Source: Escherichia phage vB_VIPECOMC06
Reading direction: 5' to 3' (one strand)
Sequence record: PQ416618.1
Length of the DNA stretch: 64,000 nucleotides
Position numbers and translations under genes: made by a program. Below, piece after piece: positions 1 to 62,392 of this stretch. The notes beneath the pieces were generated by a model, which made no database searches, was not told the DNA's origin, and saw only the letters and a program-made list of their open reading frames with translations. Each line of letters opens with the position of its first letter. Position 1 is the first letter of the stretch.

Positions 1-29
1 CGTCTTCTGCGATGTGCTAAGGAATCATT

Positions 30-302
30 ATGTCTAAAGAACAAACCGAACTGGCCGAAGCCGTAGAAAAAATCTATGCAGCTATTGAGGCTGCCAAAGA
101 AATTGCTGATAAACAAAACACAACATTCGACTTGTATCCAGCTTATGGTATGGGTGGAACCTATCATTCACCTGGACAACTTAAAGCCGATCTTGAACGT
201 TGTACAAAAAACGGCTATGCTGAATGGGCTGACGTTTACCAATACGACTACAACCTGAGCCTCGAAACCGGTGGTTGGATTGCATCTTCTCACACTTGCT
301 AA
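30..302 (+). CDS. hypothetical protein (90 aa)
   Basis: ORF with AAGGAA SD before ATG; C-terminal GWIASSHTC resembles the C-terminus of the next ORF. Confidence 0.45.
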   Translation: MSKEQTELAEAVEKIYAAIEAAKEIADKQNTTFDLYPAYGMGGTYHSPGQLKADLERCTKNGYAEWADVYQYDYNLSLETGGWIASSHTC

Positions 303-311
303 GGAAATCAT

Positions 312-509
312 ATGTCTCGTGAATTAGATTGTGCTGTACGTACGGCAGTAGCTGCTCTGGAAAACCTGTTCCAAATTGCAACAGAAGAACGCGAAGAAGT
401 TACATTATGGATTGAAGATAACGCAGGTCTGAATCTCCAGAATGCAATCTCGGTATCAAATAATAGTATTACTGTTCAAGGCTGGGTATCATCTAGTTAT
501 TCTTGCTAA
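312..509 (+). CDS. hypothetical protein (65 aa), paralog of preceding ORF
   Basis: Near-identical SD/start context (AAGGAAATCATATGTCT) and similar C-terminus QGWVSSSYSC. Confidence 0.45.
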   Translation: MSRELDCAVRTAVAALENLFQIATEEREEVTLWIEDNAGLNLQNAISVSNNSITVQGWVSSSYSC

Positions 510-513
510 AACA

Positions 514-552
514 GTTTACAACAAGATAGGGCTATGTTATAGTAGTCCTATC
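514..552 (+). promoter_or_regulatory. early promoter with flanking inverted repeat (PeSL-like)
   Basis: GTTTAC, TGTTATAGT; GATAGGGCTA / TAGTCCTATC arms around the -10. Confidence 0.55.
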
Positions 553-571
553 AAATTAAATGGAGTCCACA

Positions 572-811
572 ATGATTTATTACGAAAGTATCGGAACCAA
601 AGTGGTTGGTAAAACCATTACTCGTGAAAAGTTTGCAAAGATATTCGATATGCGTTATAAAAAATCTGAACACAAAGGCATCAGATTCGAAGATGCACAC
701 TGTACAATTTGCCCTTATAATGAAGACATAAATGGTACAATCGTTCCATTGGTAGAGGCTTCACATGACGACCTCTGGGATGAATATAATATCGCATGTC
801 GCGAAATTTAA
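572..811 (+). CDS. hypothetical protein (~80 aa)
   Basis: ORF downstream of early-promoter cassette; GGAG SD before ATG at 572 (track start 560 is upstream in-frame). Confidence 0.4.
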   Translation: MIYYESIGTKVVGKTITREKFAKIFDMRYKKSEHKGIRFEDAHCTICPYNEDINGTIVPLVEASHDDLWDEYNIACREI

Positions 812-839
812 GTTAATGAATTAATCCGAGGAAATTATT

Positions 840-1796
840 ATGATGTTAGTTATTGGTTCTCGTGCACTTCACTATCATGGACTTATTGATTCTAACGCTA
901 TCAAAAATAGTGACTGGGACTTTATTGCGGACCAAGGTTCTTGGAATACATTCAAAAATCAAATGATGGGTGTATATGTTCACCAAGATAACCCTGATGT
1001 CCAAGTTTTCAAATGCTTCCATAACGGACGCGAAACTCATTTTGAAGCATATATTGTTCCGGCAATCACTAATGTCCGTGAATTAGTCGGTGAACTCACT
1101 CCTGAAGATTTCACGTCTTCTTACGACCTTTTAAAATACGCCAAGAAAAATTTAACTAAAGACCGTTTGAACGGGTTTTACTGGGCAACTCCTGGGATGT
1201 GTCTTGCAATTAAGATGTCTCATCGTTTCAAGAAAAATAATCCATTCTTTTTAAAGACTATGAACCATATTCAGTATCTTCGTGGTAAAGGTGTTACACT
1301 GAACGATGAACTTACTGAAATTATGCTGAAACGCCAGAAAGAAACCTTGAACTATGCTCACCCAGTTCTTGACACTTCTAAAAGTGCGTTCTTTAAAGAT
1401 GACATCTATACATATGACCATGATACTATTCATGAAGCCATTGCACTAACAGACCGTCCAGCATATACATTTTATATGAAAGACGGTTCTGAAGTCATGA
1501 CCTCACGCGAGAAGTTTGAATCATTACCAGAAATGGTCAAATTGGCCGGTGTATACGAAGAATCATGTGTACTAGCATTAGAACGTTCTCAGATTCCTAA
1601 TGACTTTAAAATTAACCCTGAATCCAGTTTCATGATGGCATTGGAAAAAGTCTGTACAAGCATCACCTCCGGTTGGTTCCGTGAGTATGCCTGGGAAAAC
1701 TACAGCAAAGTAGTAAGTATGTACCAAAGCTTAGGACATGATGATTACGTCAAACGTTTCAAACAAAATTTCCATATGGTAAAACCTTTCAAATAA
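840..1796 (+). CDS. hypothetical protein (318 aa)
   Basis: Long ORF with GAGGAAA SD; no family recognised. Confidence 0.55.
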   Translation: MMLVIGSRALHYHGLIDSNAIKNSDWDFIADQGSWNTFKNQMMGVYVHQDNPDVQVFKCFHNGRETHFEAYIVPAITNVRELVGELTPEDFTSSYDLLKYAKKNLTKDRLNGFYWATPGMCLAIKMSHRFKKNNPFFLKTMNHIQYLRGKGVTLNDELTEIMLKRQKETLNYAHPVLDTSKSAFFKDDIYTYDHDTIHEAIALTDRPAYTFYMKDGSEVMTSREKFESLPEMVKLAGVYEESCVLALERSQIPNDFKINPESSFMMALEKVCTSITSGWFREYAWENYSKVVSMYQSLGHDDYVKRFKQNFHMVKPFK

Positions 1797-1808
1797 CTTC
1801 ACAAAACT

Positions 1809-1846
1809 GTTTACAACATGATAGGACTATGTTATAGTAGTCCTAT
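1809..1846 (+). promoter_or_regulatory. early promoter with flanking inverted repeat (PeSL-like)
   Basis: GTTTAC, TGTTATAGT; ATAGGACTA / TAGTCCTAT perfect arms. Confidence 0.55.
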
Positions 1847-1866
1847 TAAAACATGAGGAGAATATT

Positions 1867-2172
1867 ATGAAATTAGGCGAAACCAACCGAATTGGTCTTT
1901 TAACAATATTTGCATCACCTTTTTACGCAGCCCTTTCTGTTGCAGTATTACAAAAGGCTTACGATATGGATGGTGTTCCTGGTTTTGTATTCTTATCGCC
2001 GTTTTTGCTATTCGTTGGAGCATTGTTATTATATGCCACGACTAGTTTCGACCATAACGTCTGGGTCAATTATAAATGTAAATTGTCTGAAGAAGAACAC
2101 GCGGAAGCTCGTAAAAAAGCTATTGAATCTACTAATCTAGAAAATTTCATTAAAGAATGTCGAGGAAAATAA
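1867..2172 (+). CDS. predicted membrane protein (101 aa)
   Basis: Two hydrophobic helices (LLTIFASPFYAALSVAVL, FVFLSPFLLFVGALLLYA); SD GAGGAGA upstream. Confidence 0.5.
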   Translation: MKLGETNRIGLLTIFASPFYAALSVAVLQKAYDMDGVPGFVFLSPFLLFVGALLLYATTSFDHNVWVNYKCKLSEEEHAEARKKAIESTNLENFIKECRGK

Positions 2173-2243
2173 TATGAATAGTTGATGGCAATGAAGGTAT
2201 TTCATACTATTCAGTAGATTGGACATCCTGTCCATCCTACTTA

Positions 2244-2642
2244 GTGAAACATATTTGCCAAGAATTTAAAATCGACCAGCCAGCAGGTATTATCGTGAAC
2301 AGATACATTAATGGATATCAACCTATCGATGAAGTAATACGAACAACCCAAGCTGAGCTTGAAAAGTTTTTCAATAAGTGCCAATGGATAACAGGATGGA
2401 TTATATTTGTACCATCGGTATGGTTTTTTAGTACTAAAGTAAGTGCCTTTGCCGTACTAGATATTATCGCCATCTTATTAGCATCTATTATCATAAGTGT
2501 TGTTGGTGGCATCATTGGCGGCGGTACCGCCGCCATCATTATTAATCTTATTAAAAGTAGTTTACAAGAACGTAAAGACAAGATAAAAGCCAAGAATAAT
2601 GAAGTTGAACGTTTTATTACCGAATGCAGGAATTTGAGATGA
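2244..2642 (+). CDS. predicted membrane protein (132 aa)
   Basis: Hydrophobic core with Gly-rich helix VVGGIIGGGTAAIII; start may be downstream of the track start. Confidence 0.45.
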   Translation: MKHICQEFKIDQPAGIIVNRYINGYQPIDEVIRTTQAELEKFFNKCQWITGWIIFVPSVWFFSTKVSAFAVLDIIAILLASIIISVVGGIIGGGTAAIIINLIKSSLQERKDKIKAKNNEVERFITECRNLR

Positions 2643-3097
2643 TGAGTAAGAAAAATAAAGTGAAAGAACTATCAGCCGGTATTATTTTCCTTACCGAAGA
2701 TAAAGAATTATTCATGGGGCGTGTAACTGGTTCTCGTCCTAAAGGTTCTTTAGCTCATCGGTGGGATATTCCTAAAGGTCGTGTCGAGCCCGGCGAATCT
2801 CCTATTGAAGCCGCTATTCGTGAATGTGAAGAAGAAACTGGGTTTACACAATATGACCCTGCCTTCCTGAAAGACCTAGGTGAACATCGTTACTCAGACA
2901 ATAAGAATATTCATCTGTTCCTATATACCATCCCTGTAGAGCACGAGCAATTCAGAAACAGTGTTTGTAATTCCTATCATACGTTCCCAGACGGACGACA
3001 GATTCCTGAATTTGATGCATTCGCTTTAATTAAACCTTCTCAATGGGAATATGTAATGGGCAAATCATTATATAAGGTGCTCACTACCCTCCTATAA
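2639..3097 (+). CDS. nudE: Nudix hydrolase
   Basis: Nudix box GRVEPGESPIEAAIRECEEETGF; sits immediately upstream of lysozyme as in T4 (e.1); ATGA overlap with upstream ORF. Confidence 0.8.
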   Translation: MMSKKNKVKELSAGIIFLTEDKELFMGRVTGSRPKGSLAHRWDIPKGRVEPGESPIEAAIRECEEETGFTQYDPAFLKDLGEHRYSDNKNIHLFLYTIPVEHEQFRNSVCNSYHTFPDGRQIPEFDAFALIKPSQWEYVMGKSLYKVLTTLL

Positions 3098-3104
3098 GTA
3101 ATAA

Positions 3105-3130
3105 ATACCTCCTATAAACGTGGGAGGTAT
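3105..3130 (+). promoter_or_regulatory. SD-sequestering hairpin with internal late-promoter-like box upstream of e
   Basis: ATACCTCC / GGAGGTAT inverted repeat; loop TATAAACG; right arm contains the e Shine-Dalgarno. Confidence 0.6.
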
Positions 3131-3131
3131 T

Positions 3132-3620
3132 ATGAATATATTTGAAATGCTTCGTAATGACGAAGGTCTTAGACTGACTTTATACAAAGACACTGAAGGC
3201 TTTTGGACGATTGGCATAGGTCATTTAGTAACAAAGAACCCGTCTTTAGCTGTAGCTAAAGCCGAACTTGACAGAATGATCGGGCGTAAATGCAACGGTA
3301 CAATTACCCTTGATGAGGCTGAAAAGTTATTTAATGAAGACGTTGATAAAGCTGTTCGCGGAATCTTGGGTAATGCTAAACTTAAACCGGTGTATGATTC
3401 TTTAGATGCAGTTCGTCGATGTGCATTGGTCAATATGGTCTTCCAAATGGGTGTAGCAGGCGTCGCCGGTTTTACTAATTCTCTTCGTATGCTTCAACAG
3501 AAACGTTGGGACGAAGCGGCAGTAAATCTAGCCCAATCTAAATGGTATCGTCAGACACCTAATCGCGCGAAACGCGTAATCTCAACATTTAAAACAGGAA
3601 CTTGGAAAGCGTATATATGA
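3132..3620 (+). CDS. e: endolysin (T4-type lysozyme)
   Basis: N-terminus [28 protein letters not shown] is the T4 lysozyme signature; ATG at 3132 (track start 3120 is a GTG inside the regulatory hairpin). Confidence 0.95.
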
Positions 3621-3898
3621 AAACATATAGTGAATTTTTATCAGAATCTATTCTTAACGAAGCTACTGACACATTTGCAACTAAGCTAGGTGCAGCTTTG
3701 GTTGAAGCTGAAAGTTTATTAGCACGTATTTCTGAACTTGCTAGTAAGATAGATACTCGCAAATTTGAGCGCACCAGTGATATCGTTAAGCTTGAAGCCT
3801 TGTTGCGTATGTGCGATAAACCAGAAGAAATCGCTAAGAACGGCTCGCTGATGAAACAACGTCTTGAAAAATATATTTCAGGCGCTTCAGAAAAATAG
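3617..3898 (+). CDS. internal-protein-like protein with capsid-targeting N-terminus
   Basis: Starts [10 protein letters not shown], resembling the T4 IP capsid targeting sequence MKTYQEFIAE; ATGA coupling to e. Confidence 0.5.
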
Positions 3899-3899
3899 T

Positions 3900-3953
3900 G
3901 TTTACTTCCTCCAAGGACTTTGATACTATACATTCATCAACTACTTGGAGGAA
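3900..3953 (+). promoter_or_regulatory. early promoter cassette with SD-pairing inverted repeat (denV)
   Basis: GTTTAC -35, TGATACTAT extended -10; TTCCTCCAAG (3906-3915) is the exact reverse complement of CTTGGAGGAA (3944-3953). Confidence 0.55.
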
Positions 3954-3956
3954 ATT

Positions 3957-4370
3957 ATGACTCGTATCAATTTAACACTTGTTTCTGAACTGACCGACCA
4001 ACATCTTATGGCGGAGTATCGTGAATTACCACGCGTATTTGGTGCAGTCCGTAAACATGTTCAAAACGGTAAACGTGTAAAGGATTTTAAAATCTCTCCA
4101 ACATTTATCTTAGGCACAGGACACGTAACATTCTTTTACGACAAACTCGAATTTTTACGTTTACGTCAAATCGAGCTAATCGCTGAATGCTTGAAACGTG
4201 GTTTCAAAATCAAGGACACGACTGTCCAGGATATTTCCGACATCCCTGCAGAATTTCGTAATAATTATGTCCCGTCCGAAGCGTCCATTGCGATAAGTCA
4301 AGCACGCTTAGACGAAAAAATTGCCCAACGTCCTACTTGGTACAAATACTATGGTAAATCAATTTACTAA
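3957..4370 (+). CDS. denV: endonuclease V (pyrimidine dimer DNA glycosylase)
   Basis: [32 protein letters not shown] matches the T4 endo V family; ATG at 3957 after GGAGG SD. Confidence 0.9.
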
Positions 4371-4401
4371 GGAAAAAGGTTGCGATGGTAAAGCTTAAAT
4401 T

Positions 4402-4431
4402 GTTTACGCTTAAGTATTAATATGGTATAAT
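4402..4431 (+). promoter_or_regulatory. early promoter upstream of internal protein genes
   Basis: GTTTAC, 18-bp spacer, TGGTATAAT. Confidence 0.55.
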
Positions 4432-4461
4432 TACTCTATCAAAACAAACAAGGAAACAAAA

Positions 4462-4776
4462 ATGAAAACGTATAAAGAATTTATTGCAGAATCCGCCAAC
4501 CAACGCGTTGAAGGTGGTTATATTTGGATTGAACAAGTTGAGCCACCGAGCCGCACTTCTACAGGTAAATGGAAAATTACTGTTGATGGTCCTGGTGGTA
4601 AACGTAGGACTCTTAAAGAAATTAATGGGTACTATGAAGAAGCTCTTTCGGATGCAGGAACTTACATGATGCAAATCATGATTAAAAACCCTGAAAACCG
4701 TTTTGCAGCTAAAGTCTTCCGTCGCATCGGTAATAAACTTTATGACGCATACTCTAAAAACTTCCCTAAAGAATAA
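4462..4776 (+). CDS. internal protein (injected, capsid-targeted)
   Basis: N-terminus MKTYKEFIAE (T4 IP capsid-targeting sequence with prohead-protease site). Confidence 0.7.
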   Translation: MKTYKEFIAESANQRVEGGYIWIEQVEPPSRTSTGKWKITVDGPGGKRRTLKEINGYYEEALSDAGTYMMQIMIKNPENRFAAKVFRRIGNKLYDAYSKNFPKE

Positions 4777-4802
4777 CATGAATTAAAACAATAGGAACAA
4801 AA

Positions 4803-5381
4803 ATGAAAACATATAAAGAATTTATCGCCGAGGCCTTTGCAGGAAAAGCTCAAGGCATTAATAAGGACGAGTGGACTTATCGTGGTGGAAACGGCTTTGA
4901 CCCTAAAACTGCTCCACTTGAACGATATCTAGCCACAAAGGCTTCCGACTTTAAAGCTTTCGCTTGGGAAGGACTTCGCTGGCGTAACGATCTAAATATT
5001 GAAGTTGACGGACTTAAATTTGCTCATATTGAAGATGTTGTTGCTAGTAACTTAGACGCAGCTTTTGTTAAAGCCGACAGTGATCTTCGACGCTGGAATT
5101 TAAAACTGTTCTCTAAACAAAAAGGACCGAAGTTTGTGCCTAAAGCTGGTAAATGGGTCATTGATAATAAATTAGCTAAGGCTGTCAACTACGCTGGTCT
5201 TGAATTCGCCAAGCACAAATCATCATGGAAAGGTCTTGATGCAATGGCTTTCCGTAAAGAATTTGCTGATGTTATGGCTAAAGGCGGCTTTAAGGCAGAA
5301 ATAGATACCTCTAAAGGTACGTTTAAAGACGCTAATGTTCAGTACGCTTACGCCGTTGCTAATGCAGCCCGTGGTAATTAA
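4803..5381 (+). CDS. internal protein (IPIII-like, 192 aa)
   Basis: N-terminus MKTYKEFIAEA; size similar to T4 IPIII. Confidence 0.7.
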   Translation: MKTYKEFIAEAFAGKAQGINKDEWTYRGGNGFDPKTAPLERYLATKASDFKAFAWEGLRWRNDLNIEVDGLKFAHIEDVVASNLDAAFVKADSDLRRWNLKLFSKQKGPKFVPKAGKWVIDNKLAKAVNYAGLEFAKHKSSWKGLDAMAFRKEFADVMAKGGFKAEIDTSKGTFKDANVQYAYAVANAARGN

Positions 5382-5402
5382 GGCCTATACTTAGGCCTAT
5401 TT
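5381..5402 (+). terminator. stem-loop, putative terminator after IPIII-like gene
   Basis: AGGCCTA-TACT-TAGGCCT perfect 7-bp stem followed by ATTT. Confidence 0.4.
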
Positions 5403-5419
5403 ACATTTAAAGGACACAT

Positions 5420-5749
5420 ATGAAAACATATCAAGAGTTTATCACTGAAGTTACATTATCTGCGGAACAGAAAGCTGCTATCGAAGAAGGTAAAAATCCC
5501 AAAGTAACATATAAAGTAAATAGTAAAGGCGTTTTTGATGGCTTGGTTCAAGACCCTGAATTGAAAAAAGCTCTTTCTAAAACTAATGCGTACTTTGCTC
5601 CTAAATTTAACACAGCCGGTGTACTTATTGGATTGGATGTATTCAACTCTAAAGGTGTTCTATCTAGTGCCTTTGGTTATGCCGCTAACAAAATTACCAA
5701 AGCCGCATGGGAATCCAATACCAAACAAGCTCAAAAGCCTAGAGTATAA
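5420..5749 (+). CDS. internal protein (109 aa)
   Basis: N-terminus MKTYQEFITE. Confidence 0.7.
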   Translation: MKTYQEFITEVTLSAEQKAAIEEGKNPKVTYKVNSKGVFDGLVQDPELKKALSKTNAYFAPKFNTAGVLIGLDVFNSKGVLSSAFGYAANKITKAAWESNTKQAQKPRV

Positions 5750-5922
5750 TTCTTGCCTAATAAAGGGAAACGCAACCTCTCCTTATGAACGTCGAGTCCT
5801 CTGAGTGATGTACCTTTTCCAACCTGTAATAAGGTCGAGCCCAAGTGCGGTAATGGGTTTACATAGCGAGTCGAAGGACCTAACATGTGCCACGGAATGG
5901 CCCCAACCTTAAGAGAAACTAA

Positions 5923-6462
5923 ATGAGAACATTTTTAACTGGACCTTATCTATCCCTGATGAATGCTTTTACACACCATTCTGATGCTAGAGTAGAAGAA
6001 ATTTGTAAGAACGGTTATGCCCCACCATTTGAAGACGTACTCAAGCAGTACTGTACACTTCGTTTAGATGGTGGCAGACAATCTGGTAAATCAACTGCAG
6101 TAACTAATTTTGCTGTTAATTGGCTGTATGACGGTGGAACGATTATTGTTCTTTCTAATACTTCAGCTTATGCTAAAATTTCTGCTGGCAACATTGAAAA
6201 AGAATTTTCTCGTTATTCTAGCGACGATATTCGATTCCGTTTATTTACTGATTCTGTTCGTAGTTTTATTGGCAATGAAGGTTCTAAATTCCGTGGATTA
6301 ACGCTTTCTCGTATTCTGTATATAATTGATGAGCCTATTAAAGCTCCTGATATGGATAAGATTTACAATGTCCATATTAAAACAGTCCAACACTGTTGCA
6401 AAAGCAAATATTGCATCAGCGGTAATGCTCGTCCTCAATTTTTTGTGATTGGAATGCAATGA
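5923..6462 (+). CDS. P-loop-containing hypothetical protein (179 aa)
   Basis: Walker-A-like GGRQSGKST; no family recognised. Confidence 0.45.
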   Translation: MRTFLTGPYLSLMNAFTHHSDARVEEICKNGYAPPFEDVLKQYCTLRLDGGRQSGKSTAVTNFAVNWLYDGGTIIVLSNTSAYAKISAGNIEKEFSRYSSDDIRFRLFTDSVRSFIGNEGSKFRGLTLSRILYIIDEPIKAPDMDKIYNVHIKTVQHCCKSKYCISGNARPQFFVIGMQ

Positions 6463-11967: not shown

Positions 11968-12183
11968 ATGTTATATGACCCAAGCGGTTGTTCTGAAGAT
12001 GGTGTGATTGTTCTGGAGCCTGAGCATCCAGTTGGTGATGTATATCGCACCGTTGAAGTATGCGAATGTAATTTCGTTGAAGGTAATACTGGCGGAATTT
12101 CCATTGAGCAAGATGATGATGTTATTTACCTGGATGCAAGCCAAGTAGAAGCTCTTTATAACATTTTAAAACATAATCGGTAG
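11968..12183 (+). CDS. hypothetical protein (~71 aa), member of tandem paralog pair
   Basis: Starts MLYDPSGCSEDGVIVLEPE; SD GAGGAAA. Confidence 0.4.
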   Translation: MLYDPSGCSEDGVIVLEPEHPVGDVYRTVEVCECNFVEGNTGGISIEQDDDVIYLDASQVEALYNILKHNR

Positions 12184-12221
12184 TTTACGTCTTGGTAGGA
12201 CTATGATATAGTAATCCTACC
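12183..12221 (+). promoter_or_regulatory. early promoter with flanking inverted repeat (PeSL-like)
   Basis: GTTTAC, TGATATAGT; GGTAGGACTA / TAATCCTACC arms. Confidence 0.55.
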
Positions 12222-12528
12222 AAAACAAATGGAGAACAAAATGAAACTTTTGCTTATCGCTTATGTTGTAGTACAATACAATTATCCGATGTTTACTTAT
12301 AACATGGTAAACGGCATAGTGAATCTTATTGAAACGAGTATGGTAAAATGACCCGTGAACAAGCTAATAAATTGATGGACCTTATCCATGACTTACGTGA
12401 AGCCGATTCAGATTTGAATGATGTAGCTTATCACGCGGTAAATGATAACGGAGACTTTTATGAAAATCAGGTTGATGCTTGCCAGAATGCTTTGGTGAAT
12501 TTTGTTGAAACTTTAATTGGTGAATAAT

Positions 12529-14875: not shown

Positions 14876-14904
14876 GTGTACATGCTTTTAGGATATGTTA
14901 TTAT
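14876..14904 (+). promoter_or_regulatory. early promoter variant
   Basis: GTGTAC, 17-bp spacer, TGTTATTAT. Confidence 0.5.
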
Positions 14905-14942
14905 AGACCTATCGAAACGAAATGAGTAAATTGGAGAATAAA

Positions 14943-16351: not shown

Positions 16352-16386
16352 GTTTACAAGGTCTATGGTTATGTTATTATAGACCT
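16352..16386 (+). promoter_or_regulatory. early promoter with flanking inverted repeat (PeSL-like)
   Basis: GTTTAC, TGTTATTAT; AGGTCTAT / ATAGACCT arms. Confidence 0.55.
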
Positions 16387-27010: not shown

Positions 27011-27023
27011 TAATATACAACGA

Positions 27024-27057
27024 TAGGAAGACATGTTATTATCTTCCTATCGTCTTA
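27024..27057 (+). other. perfect 12-bp inverted repeat (PeSL-like stem-loop)
   Basis: ACGATAGGAAGA-(10 nt)-TCTTCCTATCGT. Confidence 0.5.
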
Positions 27058-28211: not shown

Positions 28212-28250
28212 TGCTTTAAGATAGGTCTCTAAATATTATGATATAATAGA
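28212..28250 (+). promoter_or_regulatory. putative middle/early promoter with inverted repeat upstream of gene 55
   Basis: MotA-box-like TGCTTTA; ATAGGTCT / AGACCTAT arms flanking TATGATATAAT. Confidence 0.4.
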
Positions 28251-28276
28251 CCTATGAATTGAGCTAAGAGGTACTT

Positions 28277-29578: not shown

Positions 29579-29752
29579 ATGACGAACGACCTGACCTCTG
29601 AAAATTTCGATAAAATCCGTAAAGGCAAAGCAGAAAGAATGAGACGTTTTAAAGAGTCTTATGATAAAGCTAAAGCCGAAGGAACTATTACATACAAGCC
29701 CATTCGATTTAAAAGTTCAAATGAGCCTCTGTACGGTGTACTATGTGGATAG
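29579..29752 (+). CDS. hypothetical small protein (57 aa)
   Basis: Below track cutoff; followed directly by a strong terminator. Confidence 0.3.
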   Translation: MTNDLTSENFDKIRKGKAERMRRFKESYDKAKAEGTITYKPIRFKSSNEPLYGVLCG

Positions 29753-29775
29753 GAACTCTTCGGAGTTCCTTTTTT
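29752..29775 (+). terminator. rho-independent terminator
   Basis: GGAACTC-TTCG-GAGTTCC followed by TTTTTT. Confidence 0.8.
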
Positions 29776-36381: not shown

Positions 36382-36385
36382 AGCA

Positions 36386-36415
36386 ATGGGACTTCGGTCC
36401 CATTTGGAGTATAAT
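36386..36415 (+). promoter_or_regulatory. stem-loop plus -10 element between regA and gene 43
   Basis: ATGGGAC-TTCG-GTCCCAT hairpin followed by GAGTATAAT. Confidence 0.5.
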
Positions 36416-47029: not shown

Positions 47030-47363
47030 TCTCGATGATTTAAATCTAGAAATCGTTGATGAATCCCCTTCTTCGGAAGGGGAAGACATTCGCAAAGAAC
47101 GAGTGTTTAATGAATCTCTTAAAATTATCCGTTCAGCAATGGAAAATGTCATTCAAGAGATTCTGATTACACTTGAAGATGGTTCTCATCATATAGTCTA
47201 TATTACAAAACTAGACTGGGTTGATGGTAAAATCGTAATGGACTTTGCAGTTCTTGACCAGGACAGAAAAGCAGAACTTGCACCACATGTTGAAAAATGT
47301 GTTACAATGCAAGTACAACAAGCTTTTAATGAACGGGCCAAGAAAAAATTTAAATTCTTTTAA
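47022..47363 (+). CDS. 40: gp40-like protein (head vertex assembly accessory)
   Basis: Small ORF between uvsX and gene 41 as in T4; ATG at 47022 overlapping uvsX end. Confidence 0.55.
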   Translation: MNNLDDLNLEIVDESPSSEGEDIRKERVFNESLKIIRSAMENVIQEILITLEDGSHHIVYITKLDWVDGKIVMDFAVLDQDRKAELAPHVEKCVTMQVQQAFNERAKKKFKFF

Positions 47364-48815: not shown

Positions 48816-48821
48816 TAAAAA

Positions 48822-48840
48822 GGAGACTTCGGTCTCCTTT
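48822..48840 (+). terminator. rho-independent terminator after gene 41
   Basis: GGAGAC-TTCG-GTCTCC followed by TTT. Confidence 0.65.
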
Positions 48841-48875: not shown

Positions 48876-48903
48876 TACTTACACTAACCAAGAGGAGAAC
48901 AAA

Positions 48904-50160: not shown

Positions 50161-50198
50161 GTTTACATTATAGATGGACTATAGTATAGTAGTCCTAT
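50161..50198 (+). promoter_or_regulatory. early promoter with flanking inverted repeat (PeSL-like)
   Basis: GTTTAC; GGACTAT / TAGTCC arms around TATAGT. Confidence 0.5.
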
Positions 50199-50219
50199 CA
50201 AATCAACTAAGGAGTTAAA

Positions 50220-54000: not shown

Positions 54001-54008
54001 TAATTTAA

Positions 54009-54042
54009 GGAATCCTTCGGGATTCCTTTTTTTTTTTTTTGT
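54009..54042 (+). terminator. strong rho-independent terminator after soc
   Basis: GGAATCC-TTCG-GGATTCC followed by a 16-nt T-tract. Confidence 0.9.
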
Positions 54043-55560: not shown

Positions 55561-55660
55561 AGGCTTATCTTTAAATGGAGGTCTATCATGACATGTCAAT
55601 CTGAACTTCAAGAACGCGAATACCTAACAAAATCATTCATTTAAAAATATTGAATTTTTA

Positions 55661-59542: not shown

Positions 59543-59572
59543 GTTTACAACCAAGGATGGTTGGAGTATAAT
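59543..59572 (+). promoter_or_regulatory. repeated promoter cassette (copy 3)
   Basis: GTTTAC, CAACCAAGGATGGTTGG, TATAAT; same sequence as at 18986. Confidence 0.6.
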
Positions 59573-60545: not shown

Positions 60546-61070
60546 ATGTTAGTTTACCGCGTAGAACGTAGTTTTTGTACTCAACGTGAATCATTACCAG
60601 GAATTGCTATCGAAGATGGTAAAGCCGTCAGAATTTGGGAAACCTCTTGGAATAAAGAACCTCGCTCGCCATACGGTTGGTCGGGCACCGACAACTCTGA
60701 AGAAACATGGGAGTTCCTTGATAAGCATGGAATAATCTCAGGTAACTTCTACCATCACGGCGACAACTATAATGTCCCTAATCGTCCTACAGTAAATGAA
60801 GACAAACTCCTTGAACAAAATATCTTAAGATACCATAGAATTGAGCACACATTTGAATTGAGTGAAGATTGGGCTCAAGGGTTCTATTTTGGATTTGAAA
60901 GTGTTGACGCGGTTTATGCATGGTTTGATGACCAGATGGATGTTGAACTCTTGAAAGCTAAAGGATACTACATCGCGATCTATGAAGCACCTGATTTCAT
61001 CCTCGGAAGTTGTCAATTAATGTTTAGACGTTCATTGGCAGAACAAGTTGATTTTATTTTGCTAAAATGA
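60546..61070 (+). CDS. hypothetical protein (174 aa)
   Basis: SD GAGGAGAA. Confidence 0.45.
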   Translation: MLVYRVERSFCTQRESLPGIAIEDGKAVRIWETSWNKEPRSPYGWSGTDNSEETWEFLDKHGIISGNFYHHGDNYNVPNRPTVNEDKLLEQNILRYHRIEHTFELSEDWAQGFYFGFESVDAVYAWFDDQMDVELLKAKGYYIAIYEAPDFILGSCQLMFRRSLAEQVDFILLK

Positions 61071-61103
61071 TGTACAACAACTACGGTCTATGATACTATA
61101 GAC
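61071..61103 (+). promoter_or_regulatory. early promoter variant with flanking inverted repeat
   Basis: TGTACA, TGATACTAT; GGTCTAT / ATAGACC arms. Confidence 0.45.
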
Positions 61104-61127
61104 CTATCAAAACAAGAGGAGAATATT

Positions 61128-61949: not shown

Positions 61950-62375
61950 ATGGCTTTTAAAGGTTTTGAAGTTGGTAAGAAATATCGTATTATCAAAGGA
62001 CAGGAAGATAATTTCTTGAGAATGCTTAATACGACTGGTAAACGTCTTAATACTAATCTGCATACTACTTTATTGTCCAAAGATTTTATTGTAGAAGAGA
62101 TGATTGGTTACGGCGTTTCGATTATTGCTGTAGAAGCCGTAGGCGATTATGGCCGAACTATTCATAGTATGCAAGGTGATATTCTGCTTTATGGTGCAGA
62201 ATTTAAATTCTTTGAAGAAGTTCCGGAACCAGATACAGCTGTCGATTTCAAAAAAGGCTCTGTAGAATTTGTTGATGGTTCGGTGATCGTATCAGGTGAT
62301 GTGGTCATTACAGTTAAAAGTGAACAAGGGCGTTTGGCTGCAATTGATGCACTTCAGAAAATTAAATTTAAATAA
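61950..62375 (+). CDS. hypothetical protein (141 aa)
   Basis: Followed by GGGC-TTCG-GCCC-TTTTT terminator. Confidence 0.45.
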   Translation: MAFKGFEVGKKYRIIKGQEDNFLRMLNTTGKRLNTNLHTTLLSKDFIVEEMIGYGVSIIAVEAVGDYGRTIHSMQGDILLYGAEFKFFEEVPEPDTAVDFKKGSVEFVDGSVIVSGDVVITVKSEQGRLAAIDALQKIKFK

Positions 62376-62392
62376 GGGCTTCGGCCCTTTTT
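62376..62392 (+). terminator. rho-independent terminator upstream of gene 39
   Basis: GGGC-TTCG-GCCC followed by TTTTT. Confidence 0.75.

What the first reader, a model, noticed from the sequence alone, without database searches (positions are those of the whole stretch)
514..552. Second class of promoter cassettes: inverted repeats flanking the -10 (PeSL-like)
Promoters at 514, 1809, 12183, 16352, 50161, 61071 and the element at 27024 have 7-12 bp arms such as GATAGGACTA / TAGTCCTATC or AGGTCTAT / ATAGACCT around the -10. The arm sequences differ between copies but stay complementary within each, which implies selection for the structure. Such promoter-stem-loop cassettes are thought to mediate modular shuffling in T4-type phages.
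Basis: partly seen in the sequence, partly recalled or inferred. Interest (0 to 1): 0.45.

Follow-up and report, generated by a model that had tools for sequence, protein, structure and literature searches.

The report
Early promoters wrapped in hairpin arms
Seven early promoters of this RB69-like T4-type phage have short inverted repeats bracketing the -10 box; the pattern is real and far beyond chance, but it is the T-even version of the promoter/stem-loop (PeSL) cassettes already described in T4-type phages.

Summary
The window is an RB69-like (Mosigvirus) genome segment, with early genes on the + strand. All seven named sites carry a GTTTAC-type early promoter (27013 is a weak one). In each, part of the spacer is complementary to the segment running from the last -10 base to about +3.

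This is not chance. Stems of at least 8 bp across the -10 occur at 13 of 45 RB69 promoters and 11 of 36 T4 promoters, against about 1 expected from spacer shuffles. About 31 unrelated arm sequences occur among 495 T4-type promoters, with compensatory changes between paralogs and between T4 and RB69 orthologs.

The 5' arm lies upstream of the predicted start site. The hairpin can therefore exist only in DNA or in RNA reading through from upstream promoters. Internal mismatches are G.T 34 versus A.C 11 on the sense strand, which favours a sense-strand RNA hairpin. No cassette has a T-run, so they are not canonical terminators.

The architecture matches known PeSL cassettes (RB49/phi1, T4/PST, T-even IP loci), so this is a new member of a known kind. 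Window/RB69 indel junctions do fall at promoter cassettes (8 of 19), but only one falls at this class.

The parts
514..519 (+). -35 element GTTTAC (T4-type early promoter) of the focal cassette
   Evidence: TTTACA-17-TATAGT, 10 of 12, TG present; ortholog is RB69 Pe:69254, the top-scoring promoter in that list at 37.8
525..534 (+). 5' arm GATAGGGCTA, in the variable part of the spacer (-25 to -16)
538..543 (+). -10 hexamer TATAGT preceded by TG (extended -10); its first five bases lie in the hairpin loop
543..552 (+). 3' arm TAGTCCTATC (-7 to +3); predicted start site is A550
   Evidence: The start site is inferred from the spacing and from the C-rich -3 to -1 consensus described for RB69
562..574 (+). 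Shine-Dalgarno GGAG (562-565) and ATG (572-574) of the RB69 ORF135c homolog; both lie outside the hairpin
1809..1848 (+). class-2 cassette: GTTTAC 1809-1814, arms 1819-1829 / 1838-1848, -10 TATAGT; upstream of the RB69 ORF133c homolog
   Evidence: RNA -17.9 kcal/mol, z = -4.3; RB69 Pe:67959
12183..12226 (+). class-2 cassette: GTTTAC 12183-12188, hairpin 12189-12226, -10 TATAGT 12207-12212
   Evidence: RB69 Pe:57689. RB69 has G.T where the window has G-C
16352..16386 (+). class-2 cassette, different arms and register: AGGTCTAT 16359-16366 / ATAGACCT 16379-16386, -10 TATTAT
   Evidence: RB69 Pe:53683
27013..27053 (+). longest stem (12 of 12: ACGATAGGAAGA / TCTTCCTATCGT) around TATTAT 27037-27042, with a weak -35-like ATATAC
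   Evidence: RB69 Pe:42816 (score 15.9, ATGTAC, one extra base in the 5' arm)
50161..50199 (+). class-2 cassette with a bulged stem: GGACTA / TAGTCC plus GAT / ATC; upstream of sp
   Evidence: RB69 Pe:19020
61070..61104 (+). class-2 cassette: ATGTAC, GGTCTAT 61085-61091 / ATAGACC 61098-61104, -10 TACTAT; upstream of cef
   Evidence: RB69 Pe:6863

Best explanation
These are T-even-type PeSL cassettes: sigma-70 early promoters (GTTTAC, 17-18 nt, TAnnnT) in which the free-to-vary half of the spacer (about -26 to -16) is kept complementary to the discriminator/start-site segment (about -7 to +4). The -10 box therefore sits in the loop.

Because the 5' arm lies upstream of the start site, RNA begun at the cassette's own promoter cannot form the hairpin. 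Only early transcripts reading through from upstream promoters carry it.

I take the selected object to be this intercistronic RNA hairpin. It is superimposed on the promoter because intergenic spaces are only about 60 nt. Its most likely role is as an attenuator or 3'-exonuclease barrier that insulates neighbouring early gene modules. It is not a canonical intrinsic terminator.

As conserved repeats of about 45 nt, the cassettes also offer homology patches for recombination.

Shown: existence, enrichment, covariation, geometry, strand-biased wobble pairs. Inferred: that the RNA form is the functional one, and what it does to the transcript.
For: Enrichment:
- Stems of at least 8 bp across the -10: RB69 13 of 45 against 1.1 expected; T4 11 of 36 against 1.0.

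Covariation on 150 unselected promoters in one fixed register (-16:-7 outward):
- 49.9% of cells paired against 46.5 +/- 0.8 in shuffles (0 of 500 reach it).
- Covariation score 0.234 against 0.193 (0 of 500).
- Slid controls give 29-42% paired.

With one representative per arm family, in-register runs of at least 7 occur 5.1 times against 0.19. About 31 arm families exist.

Compensatory changes:
- T4 57990 (GACAAGATTA / TAATCTTGTC) against RB69 57675 (GGTAGGACTA / TAGTCCTATC).
- T4 7215 (GGGACCA / TGGTCCC) against RB69 165008 (GAGAGCA / TGCTCTC).

Geometry: the dyad axis is at -11.5 in 36 of 78 cassettes, and the 5' arm is always upstream of +1.

Strand bias:
- Internal mismatches are G.T 34 against A.C 11 (p = 0.0008). 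Composition-matched cross-paired controls give 299:302.
- The sense RNA hairpin is more stable than the antisense one in 75 of 93 cassettes.

Stability: RNA -9.7 to -18.7 kcal/mol, against only -4.3 to -11.1 as ssDNA.

General design: in RB69 plus T4, 27 of 81 promoter spacers have a perfect complement of at least 7 nt downstream (1.8 expected). Seventeen are start-site-proximal and nine overlap the Shine-Dalgarno sequence.

Precedent: RB49/phi1 PeSL stem-loops overlap the -10, and one of them blocked read-through in a lacZ assay.
Against: - No transcript data were available; start sites and read-through are inferred.
- The G.T excess loses significance at stricter stem thresholds (17:10 at score 8 or more, 11:4 at 9 or more).
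- I first ran the G.T/A.C test at 16:10 (not significant) and repeated it as scans were added (26:11, p = 0.02; then 34:11). The final p-value therefore reflects optional stopping.
- A sense-strand C-to-T mutation bias could contribute to the G.T excess.
- Promoters without cassettes also show a smaller sense-over-antisense folding bias.
- No cassette has a T-run after the stem (0 of 74 with at least 5 T in 8 nt; mean 1.6 T and 4.0 A). Stems are only 32% G+C.
- The genome uses separate canonical UUCG-tetraloop terminators where it terminates, so strong termination is unlikely and the exact RNA-level effect is unknown.
- Part of the pairing baseline (46.5%) comes from a quasi-palindromic promoter consensus.
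Confidence: 0.5

Rival explanations
1. The structure acts in DNA. The inverted repeat extrudes as a cruciform, or folds on single-stranded DNA during replication or recombination. This creates a break or pairing hotspot that drives cassette-to-cassette recombination: the shuffling mechanism itself.
For: - PeSL-mediated deletions and mini-circles, with crossovers mapped in the loop, were shown for RB49/phi1.
- Eight of 19 window/RB69 junctions lie at promoter cassettes, and two are crossovers inside promoter cores.
- The T4 RefSeq record notes a 14-bp segment (133300-133313) 'inverted complement of previously reported sequence' in early promoter Pe133295. It is centred exactly on the dyad of that cassette.
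Against: - A cruciform needs both strands, so G.T and A.C should be equally tolerated. The observed ratio is 34:11.
- The ssDNA hairpins are weak (-4.3 to -11.1 kcal/mol, 8-nt loops).
- Only 1 of 19 junctions is at a class-2 cassette, and the clean crossovers are at promoters without this repeat.
- Homology alone explains those events.
Confidence: 0.15
2. No function. The complementarity is a by-product of copying a few ancestral cassettes, plus quasi-palindrome 'correction' by intra-strand template switching during replication, acting on a promoter consensus that is already partly self-complementary.
For: - Four of the seven window copies are near-identical paralogs.
- The baseline pairing of shuffled columns is already 46.5%.
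- Templated quasi-palindrome mutagenesis is known from T4 genetics (my own knowledge, not tested here).
Against: - About 31 unrelated arm families exist.
- Hairpins are retained with different sequences at orthologous T4 and RB69 promoters.
- Enrichment persists with one representative per family.
- Template switching would perfect both strands equally and does not predict a G.T excess.
Confidence: 0.15
3. The hairpins are bona fide transcription terminators, so each cassette is a terminator plus promoter, as PeSLs are described in the literature.
For: The stem-loop of RB49/phi1 PeSL211/210 reduced lacZ expression as strongly as the rrnB T1 terminator. The 2014 paper calls PeSLs promoter-terminator motifs.
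Against: - None of 74 cassettes has a T-run; tails are A-rich; stems are 32% G+C.
- The terminator scan lists none of them on either strand.
- Canonical GC-rich UUCG-loop terminators with T-runs exist separately in the same window, for example 48819-48840 and 54007-54028, each just upstream of a promoter.
Confidence: 0.1
4. The inverted repeat is a palindromic operator for a dimeric DNA-binding protein that shuts off early promoters.
For: The dyad is centred at -11.5, over the -10. The mechanism of early-promoter shut-off is described as not completely understood.
Against: At least six unrelated arm sequences occur within one genome (RB69) and about 31 overall. Conservation is of pairing, not of sequence. 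The wobble mismatches are strand-biased.
Confidence: 0.03

Closest known systems
PeSL (promoter-early stem-loop) cassettes of RB49/phi1 (Arbiol et al. 2010, PMC2839356)
   Same: - Intergenic composite: AT-rich upstream region, early promoter, stem-loop, Shine-Dalgarno sequence and ATG.
- The stem-loop is most often between -35 and -10 or overlapping the -10.
- G-T pairs occur in the stems.
- The cassettes are repeated many times in the early and hyperplastic regions.
   Different: - RB49 promoters are near-perfect TTGACA/TATAAT and the stems are typically GGGG...CCCC. Here the promoters are GTTTAC-type and the stems are AT-rich (32% G+C) with many unrelated sequences.
- Terminator activity and mini-circles were shown for RB49/phi1 only.
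PeSLs of T4/PST and PeSL/PmSLs of nt-1/KVP40 (Comeau et al. 2014, PMC4122927)
   Same: - TTTACW-N17-TAYWAT promoters.
- Variable stems 'often AGNA-loop-TCNT', which fits AGGA...TCCT in five of the seven window cassettes.
- Location in variable regions.
- The window also has a Mot-box plus inverted-repeat element (28212-28255) resembling a PmSL.
   Different: - The figure legend places the PST stem-loops 'just upstream of the promoter'. Here they straddle the -10.
- RB69-type phages were not analysed in that paper.
Early-promoter/stem-loop elements of the T-even internal-protein (IP) loci (Repoila et al. 1994, as summarised in Arbiol 2010)
   Same: - T4-type early promoters with weaker, AT-rich stem-loops of variable size.
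- T4 ipI, ipII and ipIII promoters carry 10-, 14- and 9-of-10-bp repeats across the -10. So do the RB69 ipI-locus promoters.
   Different: That description is restricted to IP loci. Here the class is genome-wide and, in the window, is not at IP genes. I could not read the primary paper.
Promoter-inside-hairpin translational control of T4 e, soc, 49 and I-TevI (reviewed in PMC3014915)
   Same: The 5' arm of an RNA helix lies upstream of an internal promoter. Only transcripts from farther upstream can form the helix.
   Different: In those cases the promoter is a late one and the helix sequesters the Shine-Dalgarno sequence or AUG. The class-2 hairpin ends at about +3 and leaves the Shine-Dalgarno sequence free. 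The window's other class, spacer against Shine-Dalgarno, is the closer analogue.

Membership tests
PeSL (Arbiol 2010 / Comeau 2014) | Sigma-70-type early promoter with -35 and -10 boxes at about 17 bp | tested here: met
   All seven match. The RB69 orthologs are published predicted early promoters. The -35 is GTTTAC-type, as in T4/PST, not TTGACA as in RB49. 27013 has only ATATAC.
PeSL (Arbiol 2010 / Comeau 2014) | Stable stem-loop within or overlapping the promoter | tested here: met
   Stems of 7-12 bp across the -10. RNA MFE -9.7 to -18.7 kcal/mol, z = -2.1 to -4.3.
PeSL (Arbiol 2010 / Comeau 2014) | AT-rich region upstream of -35; Shine-Dalgarno sequence and start codon at the 3' end | tested here: met
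   The 12 nt upstream are 8-11 A/T. A Shine-Dalgarno sequence and ATG lie 20-30 nt after the -10 in all seven.
PeSL (Arbiol 2010 / Comeau 2014) | Stem-loop acts as terminator or attenuator of upstream transcription | not testable with these tools
   The sequence proxies argue against a canonical terminator: no T-run in 0 of 74 cassettes, 32% G+C, none listed by the terminator scan. Attenuation or 3'-end protection remains possible.
PeSL (Arbiol 2010 / Comeau 2014) | Preferential location in hyperplastic regions, next to ORFans and to indels between close relatives | tested here: inconclusive
   - About 7 of 18 RB69 class-2 cassettes precede RB69-specific ORFs, against 13 of 57 for all early promoters.
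- Eight of 19 junctions are at promoter cassettes but only 1 is at class 2.
PeSL (Arbiol 2010 / Comeau 2014) | Recombination between cassettes (deletions, mini-circles) | tested here: inconclusive
   Two promoter-core crossovers separate the window from RB69 (the ORF102c indel at 14876; motB.1/ORF012 at 59546-59572). Both are at promoters without the class-2 repeat. Mini-circles cannot be tested here.
RB49-type PeSL specifically | polyG/polyC stem (GN-loop-CN) | tested here: not met
   The arms are GATAGGACTA, GGTCTAT, ACGATAGGAAGA and so on, with no G or C runs.
Intrinsic (Rho-independent) terminator | GC-rich hairpin immediately followed by a U-tract | tested here: not met
   Real examples in the window look different (48819, 54007, 62371).
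Any curated RNA family (Rfam 15) | Match at gathering score | tested here: not met
   No hits in the whole window.

The most novel reading that the evidence does not exclude
In T4-like phages the promoter spacer may routinely double as the 5' arm of an RNA helix that exists only in read-through transcripts. One third of T4 and RB69 early promoters have such an arm (27 of 81 against 1.8 expected). It pairs either with the Shine-Dalgarno sequence or with the start-site segment. This would be a genome-wide system that marks 'foreign' (read-through) copies of each early mRNA apart from 'own-promoter' copies and gives them a different fate in translation, processing or decay. The class-2 hairpin would be the non-translational arm of that system.
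Probability: 0.25. Interest if true: 0.6.

Novelty: new member of a known kind. Interest (0 to 1): 0.35.

Why it matters
It extends the PeSL concept to RB69-type phages. It also shows that in T-even phages the stem-loop is not an accessory placed next to the promoter. It is written into the two stretches of the promoter that are free to vary (spacer and discriminator), in a fixed register, at roughly a quarter to a third of early promoters.

Three results argue that the published label 'promoter-terminator' is probably wrong for the T-even version:
- the sense-strand wobble bias;
- the impossibility of the hairpin forming in the cassette's own transcript;
- the absence of terminator tails.

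Together they point to a testable RNA-level role on read-through transcripts. Practically, these repeats are predictable recombination and assembly trouble spots in therapeutic T4-like phage genomes.

Tried and rejected
- **IMG/VR scan with only 14 specified bases.** It returned mostly chance hits. I replaced it with 17-18-base patterns that do not specify the 5' arm.
- **G.T against A.C test on the first data set.** It gave 16:10, not significant, and reached significance only after enlarging the data. It is not significant at stricter stem thresholds, so I treat it as supporting evidence rather than decisive.
- **Single-linkage clustering of arms at 8 or more differences.** It chained almost everything into one cluster and gave no usable test.
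- **Palindromic-operator idea.** Rejected because the arms are unrelated within one genome.
- **Canonical-terminator idea.** Rejected on tail composition.
- **RNase E site (RAUUW) after the hairpin.** Present at 514 only, so dropped.
- **Rfam.** No hits.
- **Promoter features in the T4 GenBank and RefSeq records.** None are annotated.
- **T4 transcript-end data.** The literature search found none.
- **Primary papers.** Miller 2003 is not held in the library, and a full-text search did not find Repoila 1994.

Full report
**What the window is.** Bases 1-6000 match Mosigvirus genomes (Shigella phage phi25-307 97.8%, RB69 97.1%). The whole window is colinear with the minus strand of RB69 from about 69753 to 3919. 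Early genes therefore run on the + strand. The focal cassette with its flanks (490-600) is 100% identical to RB69 69154-69264, between ORF136c and ORF135c. It is present at 80% coverage or more in 145 phage records.

**Checking the observation.** All seven sites exist as described. Coordinates are given under 'parts'.
- Each has a T4-type -35 (GTTTAC, or ATGTAC at 61070, or only ATATAC at 27013), 17-18 nt of spacer usually ending in TGn, and a -10 TAnnnT.
- The 5' arm occupies the upstream, variable part of the spacer.
- The 3' arm starts at or next to the last base of the -10 and ends at about +3.
- The extended -10 therefore forms the 6-12-nt loop.
- Orthologs of all seven sites are in the published RB69 early-promoter prediction (Nolan et al. 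2006, Additional file 3). That paper does not mention inverted repeats.

As RNA, the seven 65-nt cassettes fold at -9.7 to -18.7 kcal/mol with z-scores of -2.1 to -4.3. Three other early promoters of the window give z = 0.0, +1.7 and -0.6.

**Is it more than chance?** A generic hairpin scan shows that stems of 8 matches with one mismatch are common in this AT-rich DNA, at about one per 500 nt. I therefore tested promoters specifically.
- RB69 (genome fetched): 13 of 45 GTTTAC-type promoters have a stem of at least 8 matched bp centred on the -10. Shuffling the spacer predicts 1.1. Pairing the 5' half of one promoter with the 3' half of another predicts 3.2.
- T4: 11 of 36 against 1.0.
- Four IMG/VR scans with patterns that leave the 5' arm unspecified gave 495 unique T4-type early promoters. 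Of these, 93 have stems scoring 7 or more, falling into about 31 unrelated arm families.

On 150 unselected promoters with 18-nt spacing, I imposed one fixed register (-16:-7, -17:-6, and so on outward) and counted pairs (alignment A1).
- 49.9% of cells pair, against 46.5 +/- 0.8 in shuffles (0 of 500 reach the observed value).
- The covariation score is 0.234 against 0.193 (0 of 500).
- All slid registers are lower, at 29-42%.

With one representative per arm family, in-register runs of at least 7 occur 5.1 times against 0.19 expected.

Two caveats apply.
- The high shuffled baseline shows that the promoter consensus is itself partly self-complementary. CCTATCAA at the start site occurs in many promoters that lack a 5' arm.
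- Within the window the seven copies represent only three arm types.

**Covariation in detail.**
- Within the window, GATAGG...CCTATC (514, 1809) becomes GGTAGG...CCTACC at 12183, and GGACTA / TAGTCC becomes GGAAGA / TCTTCC at 27024.
- RB69 adds TGGTACAGG / CCTGTACCA (131656), TGGTGGAGTT / AACTCTACCA (134547) and GAGAGCA / TGCTCTC (165008, 72055).
- Orthologous promoters keep the hairpin with changed sequence. T4 57990 AGTTGACAAGATTA / TAATCTTGTCAACT against RB69 57675 TTGGTAGGACTA / TAGTCCTATCAA has three double compensatory changes. T4 7215 GGGACCA / TGGTCCC against RB69 GAGAGCA / TGCTCTC has two, one of them a C-G to G-C swap.

**Anatomy and what it implies.** The dyad axis lies at -11.5 in 36 of 78 cassettes. 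This is the tightest hairpin that can be written without touching the -35 and -10 consensus, because only the spacer and the discriminator are free to vary.

With +1 at the A of CCT-A-TC, the 3' arm ends at +3 to +5 and the 5' arm is always upstream of +1. This placement is inferred from spacing and from the published RB69 logo, which has C at -3 to -1. A transcript started at the cassette's own promoter therefore cannot form the hairpin. The hairpin can exist only in DNA or in RNA reading through from upstream early promoters.

The same logic holds for the window's other promoter class, in which the spacer is complementary to the downstream Shine-Dalgarno sequence (3900, 7836, 11466, 26065, 48845, 60491). 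In RB69 plus T4, 27 of 81 spacers have a perfect complement of at least 7 nt between the -10 and the start codon (1.8 expected). Seventeen of these complements are start-site-proximal and nine overlap the Shine-Dalgarno sequence.

**RNA or DNA?** A duplex-level structure, whether cruciform or operator, treats G.T and A.C mismatches alike. A single sense strand tolerates only G.T (G.U).
- Internal mismatches in the 93 cassettes are G.T 34, A.C 11 and transversion-type 17 (binomial p = 0.0008). Composition-matched cross-paired pseudo-cassettes give 299:302, with 65% transversion-type.
- I first ran this test at 16:10 and repeated it as data were added. The excess is not significant at stricter thresholds (17:10, 11:4).
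- Sense RNA hairpins are more stable than antisense ones in 75 of 93 cassettes (-13.65 against -11.10 kcal/mol). Promoters without cassettes show a smaller bias of the same sign.
- As ssDNA the stems are weak, at -4.3 to -11.1 kcal/mol.

I read this as moderate evidence for a sense-strand RNA hairpin. A sense-strand C-to-T mutation bias is not excluded.

**Terminator?** The PeSL papers call the stem-loops terminators, on the basis of one GC-rich RB49/phi1 example. Here the evidence points the other way.
- None of 74 cassettes has at least 5 T in the 8 nt after the stem (mean 1.6 T, 4.0 A).
- Stems are 32% G+C.
- The terminator scan lists none of them.
- The window has separate textbook terminators, with UUCG loops, GC stems and T-runs, at 48819, 54007, 62371 and elsewhere.

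The likely role is something weaker: attenuation, pausing, or a 3'-exonuclease barrier after processing. This step is inference.

**Shuffling.** The window and RB69 differ at 19 junctions. Eight lie within early-promoter cassettes, which cover 4.9% of the window. Because viable indels must end between genes, the fair null is gene boundaries, and under it p = 0.02-0.18.

Two junctions are clean promoter-to-promoter crossovers.
- The 14876 promoter is the 5' half of RB69 Pe:55296 joined to the 3' half of Pe:55018, inside a shared 19-nt core ATGTTATTATAGACCTATC. This removes ORF102c.
- 59546-59572 lies inside the repeated spacer of a third promoter class and removes motB.1 plus ORF012.

Neither promoter carries the class-2 repeat. 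Only one junction (12142) is near a class-2 cassette. Promoter cassettes as homology patches are therefore supported. A special role of the inverted repeat in recombination is not.

**Comparison with what is known.**
- Arbiol et al. 2010 define PeSLs in RB49/phi1 and state that the stem-loops most commonly lie between -35 and -10 or overlap the -10. They also say that T-even IP-locus elements (Repoila 1994) are analogues with T4-type promoters and weaker AT-rich stems.
- Comeau et al. 2014 report PeSLs in T4/PST with TTTACW-N17-TAYWAT promoters and variable AGNA-loop-TCNT stems. That motif fits AGGA...TCCT in five of the seven cassettes here.
- T4 ipI, ipII and ipIII promoters do carry strong repeats across the -10.
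- RB69-type phages are not mentioned in either paper.

**Verdict.** It is a new member, in RB69-type phages, of a known kind.

This analysis adds four things: the fixed register, the genome-wide frequency, the exclusion of the hairpin from the cassette's own transcript, and the wobble bias together with the lack of terminator tails. Interest is moderate to low at 0.35.

Noticed in passing
window 3900, 7836, 11466, 26065, 48845, 55532, 55661, 60491 (+ strand): This is a second promoter class. The spacer just after GTTTAC (for example TTCTCCTCTAG) is complementary to the downstream Shine-Dalgarno sequence (CTAGAGGAGAA). Read-through RNA would hide the ribosome site, while RNA from the gene's own promoter would not. 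In RB69 plus T4, 9 of the 27 spacers that have a downstream complement are of this kind.
   Followed up: partly
window 17993, 18986, 59543: Three early promoters share an identical spacer, aaCCAAGGATGGTTGGagTATAAT (a third class). The window/RB69 junction at 59546-59572 lies inside this repeat. RB69 carries motB.1 plus ORF012 between two such promoters (Pe:8947 and the weak Pe:8387).
   Followed up: partly
window 14876-14930: This is a hybrid promoter. Its 5' half is RB69 Pe:55296 and its 3' half is RB69 Pe:55018, joined within the shared 19-nt core ATGTTATTATAGACCTATC. RB69 ORF102c is absent from the window.
   Followed up: yes
window 55588-55644: modB (an ADP-ribosyltransferase gene) is missing at its RB69 position. 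Only an 18-codon remnant, MTCQSELQEREYLTKSFI*, remains. It joins the first 14 codons to the last few across an ACAAA microhomology.
   Followed up: partly
window 28212-28255: A MotA-box-like TGCTTTA is followed by the inverted repeat ATAGGTCTCT / ATAGACCTAT (9 of 10, 15-nt loop rich in TATnAT), in the gap upstream of gene 55 (ATG 28277). It resembles the 'PmSL' (middle-promoter stem-loop) described for nt-1.
   Followed up: no
L244 (T4 NC_000866) record 133300-133313: The RefSeq misc_feature reads 'inverted complement of previously reported sequence; corrects the early promoter Pe133295'. The 14 bp are centred exactly on the dyad of that promoter's repeat (GGTAGAGTT / AGCTCTACC). Either the loop has flipped between the arms in some stock, or the hairpin caused a sequencing artefact.
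   Followed up: partly
window 48819-48840, 54007-54028, 62371-62392, 29749-29772, 36385-36404, 47064-47083: These are canonical hairpins with UUCG tetraloops and GC-rich stems, several followed by T-runs. Two sit immediately upstream of early promoters (P48845, P54050). That gives a separate terminator-then-promoter arrangement, distinct from the class-2 cassettes.
   Followed up: no
window 3104-3131: The hairpin AAATACCTCCTA / TGGGAGGTATT covers the Shine-Dalgarno sequence directly upstream of the ATG of the lysozyme (e) homolog. This is the known read-through-transcript translational block of gene e.
   Followed up: no
window 4377-4387, 48894-48901, 49398: RB69 genes are absent from the window, with junctions at promoter cassettes:
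- internal head protein ORF125c, just upstream of P4402;
- ORF041c, at the Shine-Dalgarno sequence of P48845;
- gp61.4, just upstream of P49420.
   Followed up: partly
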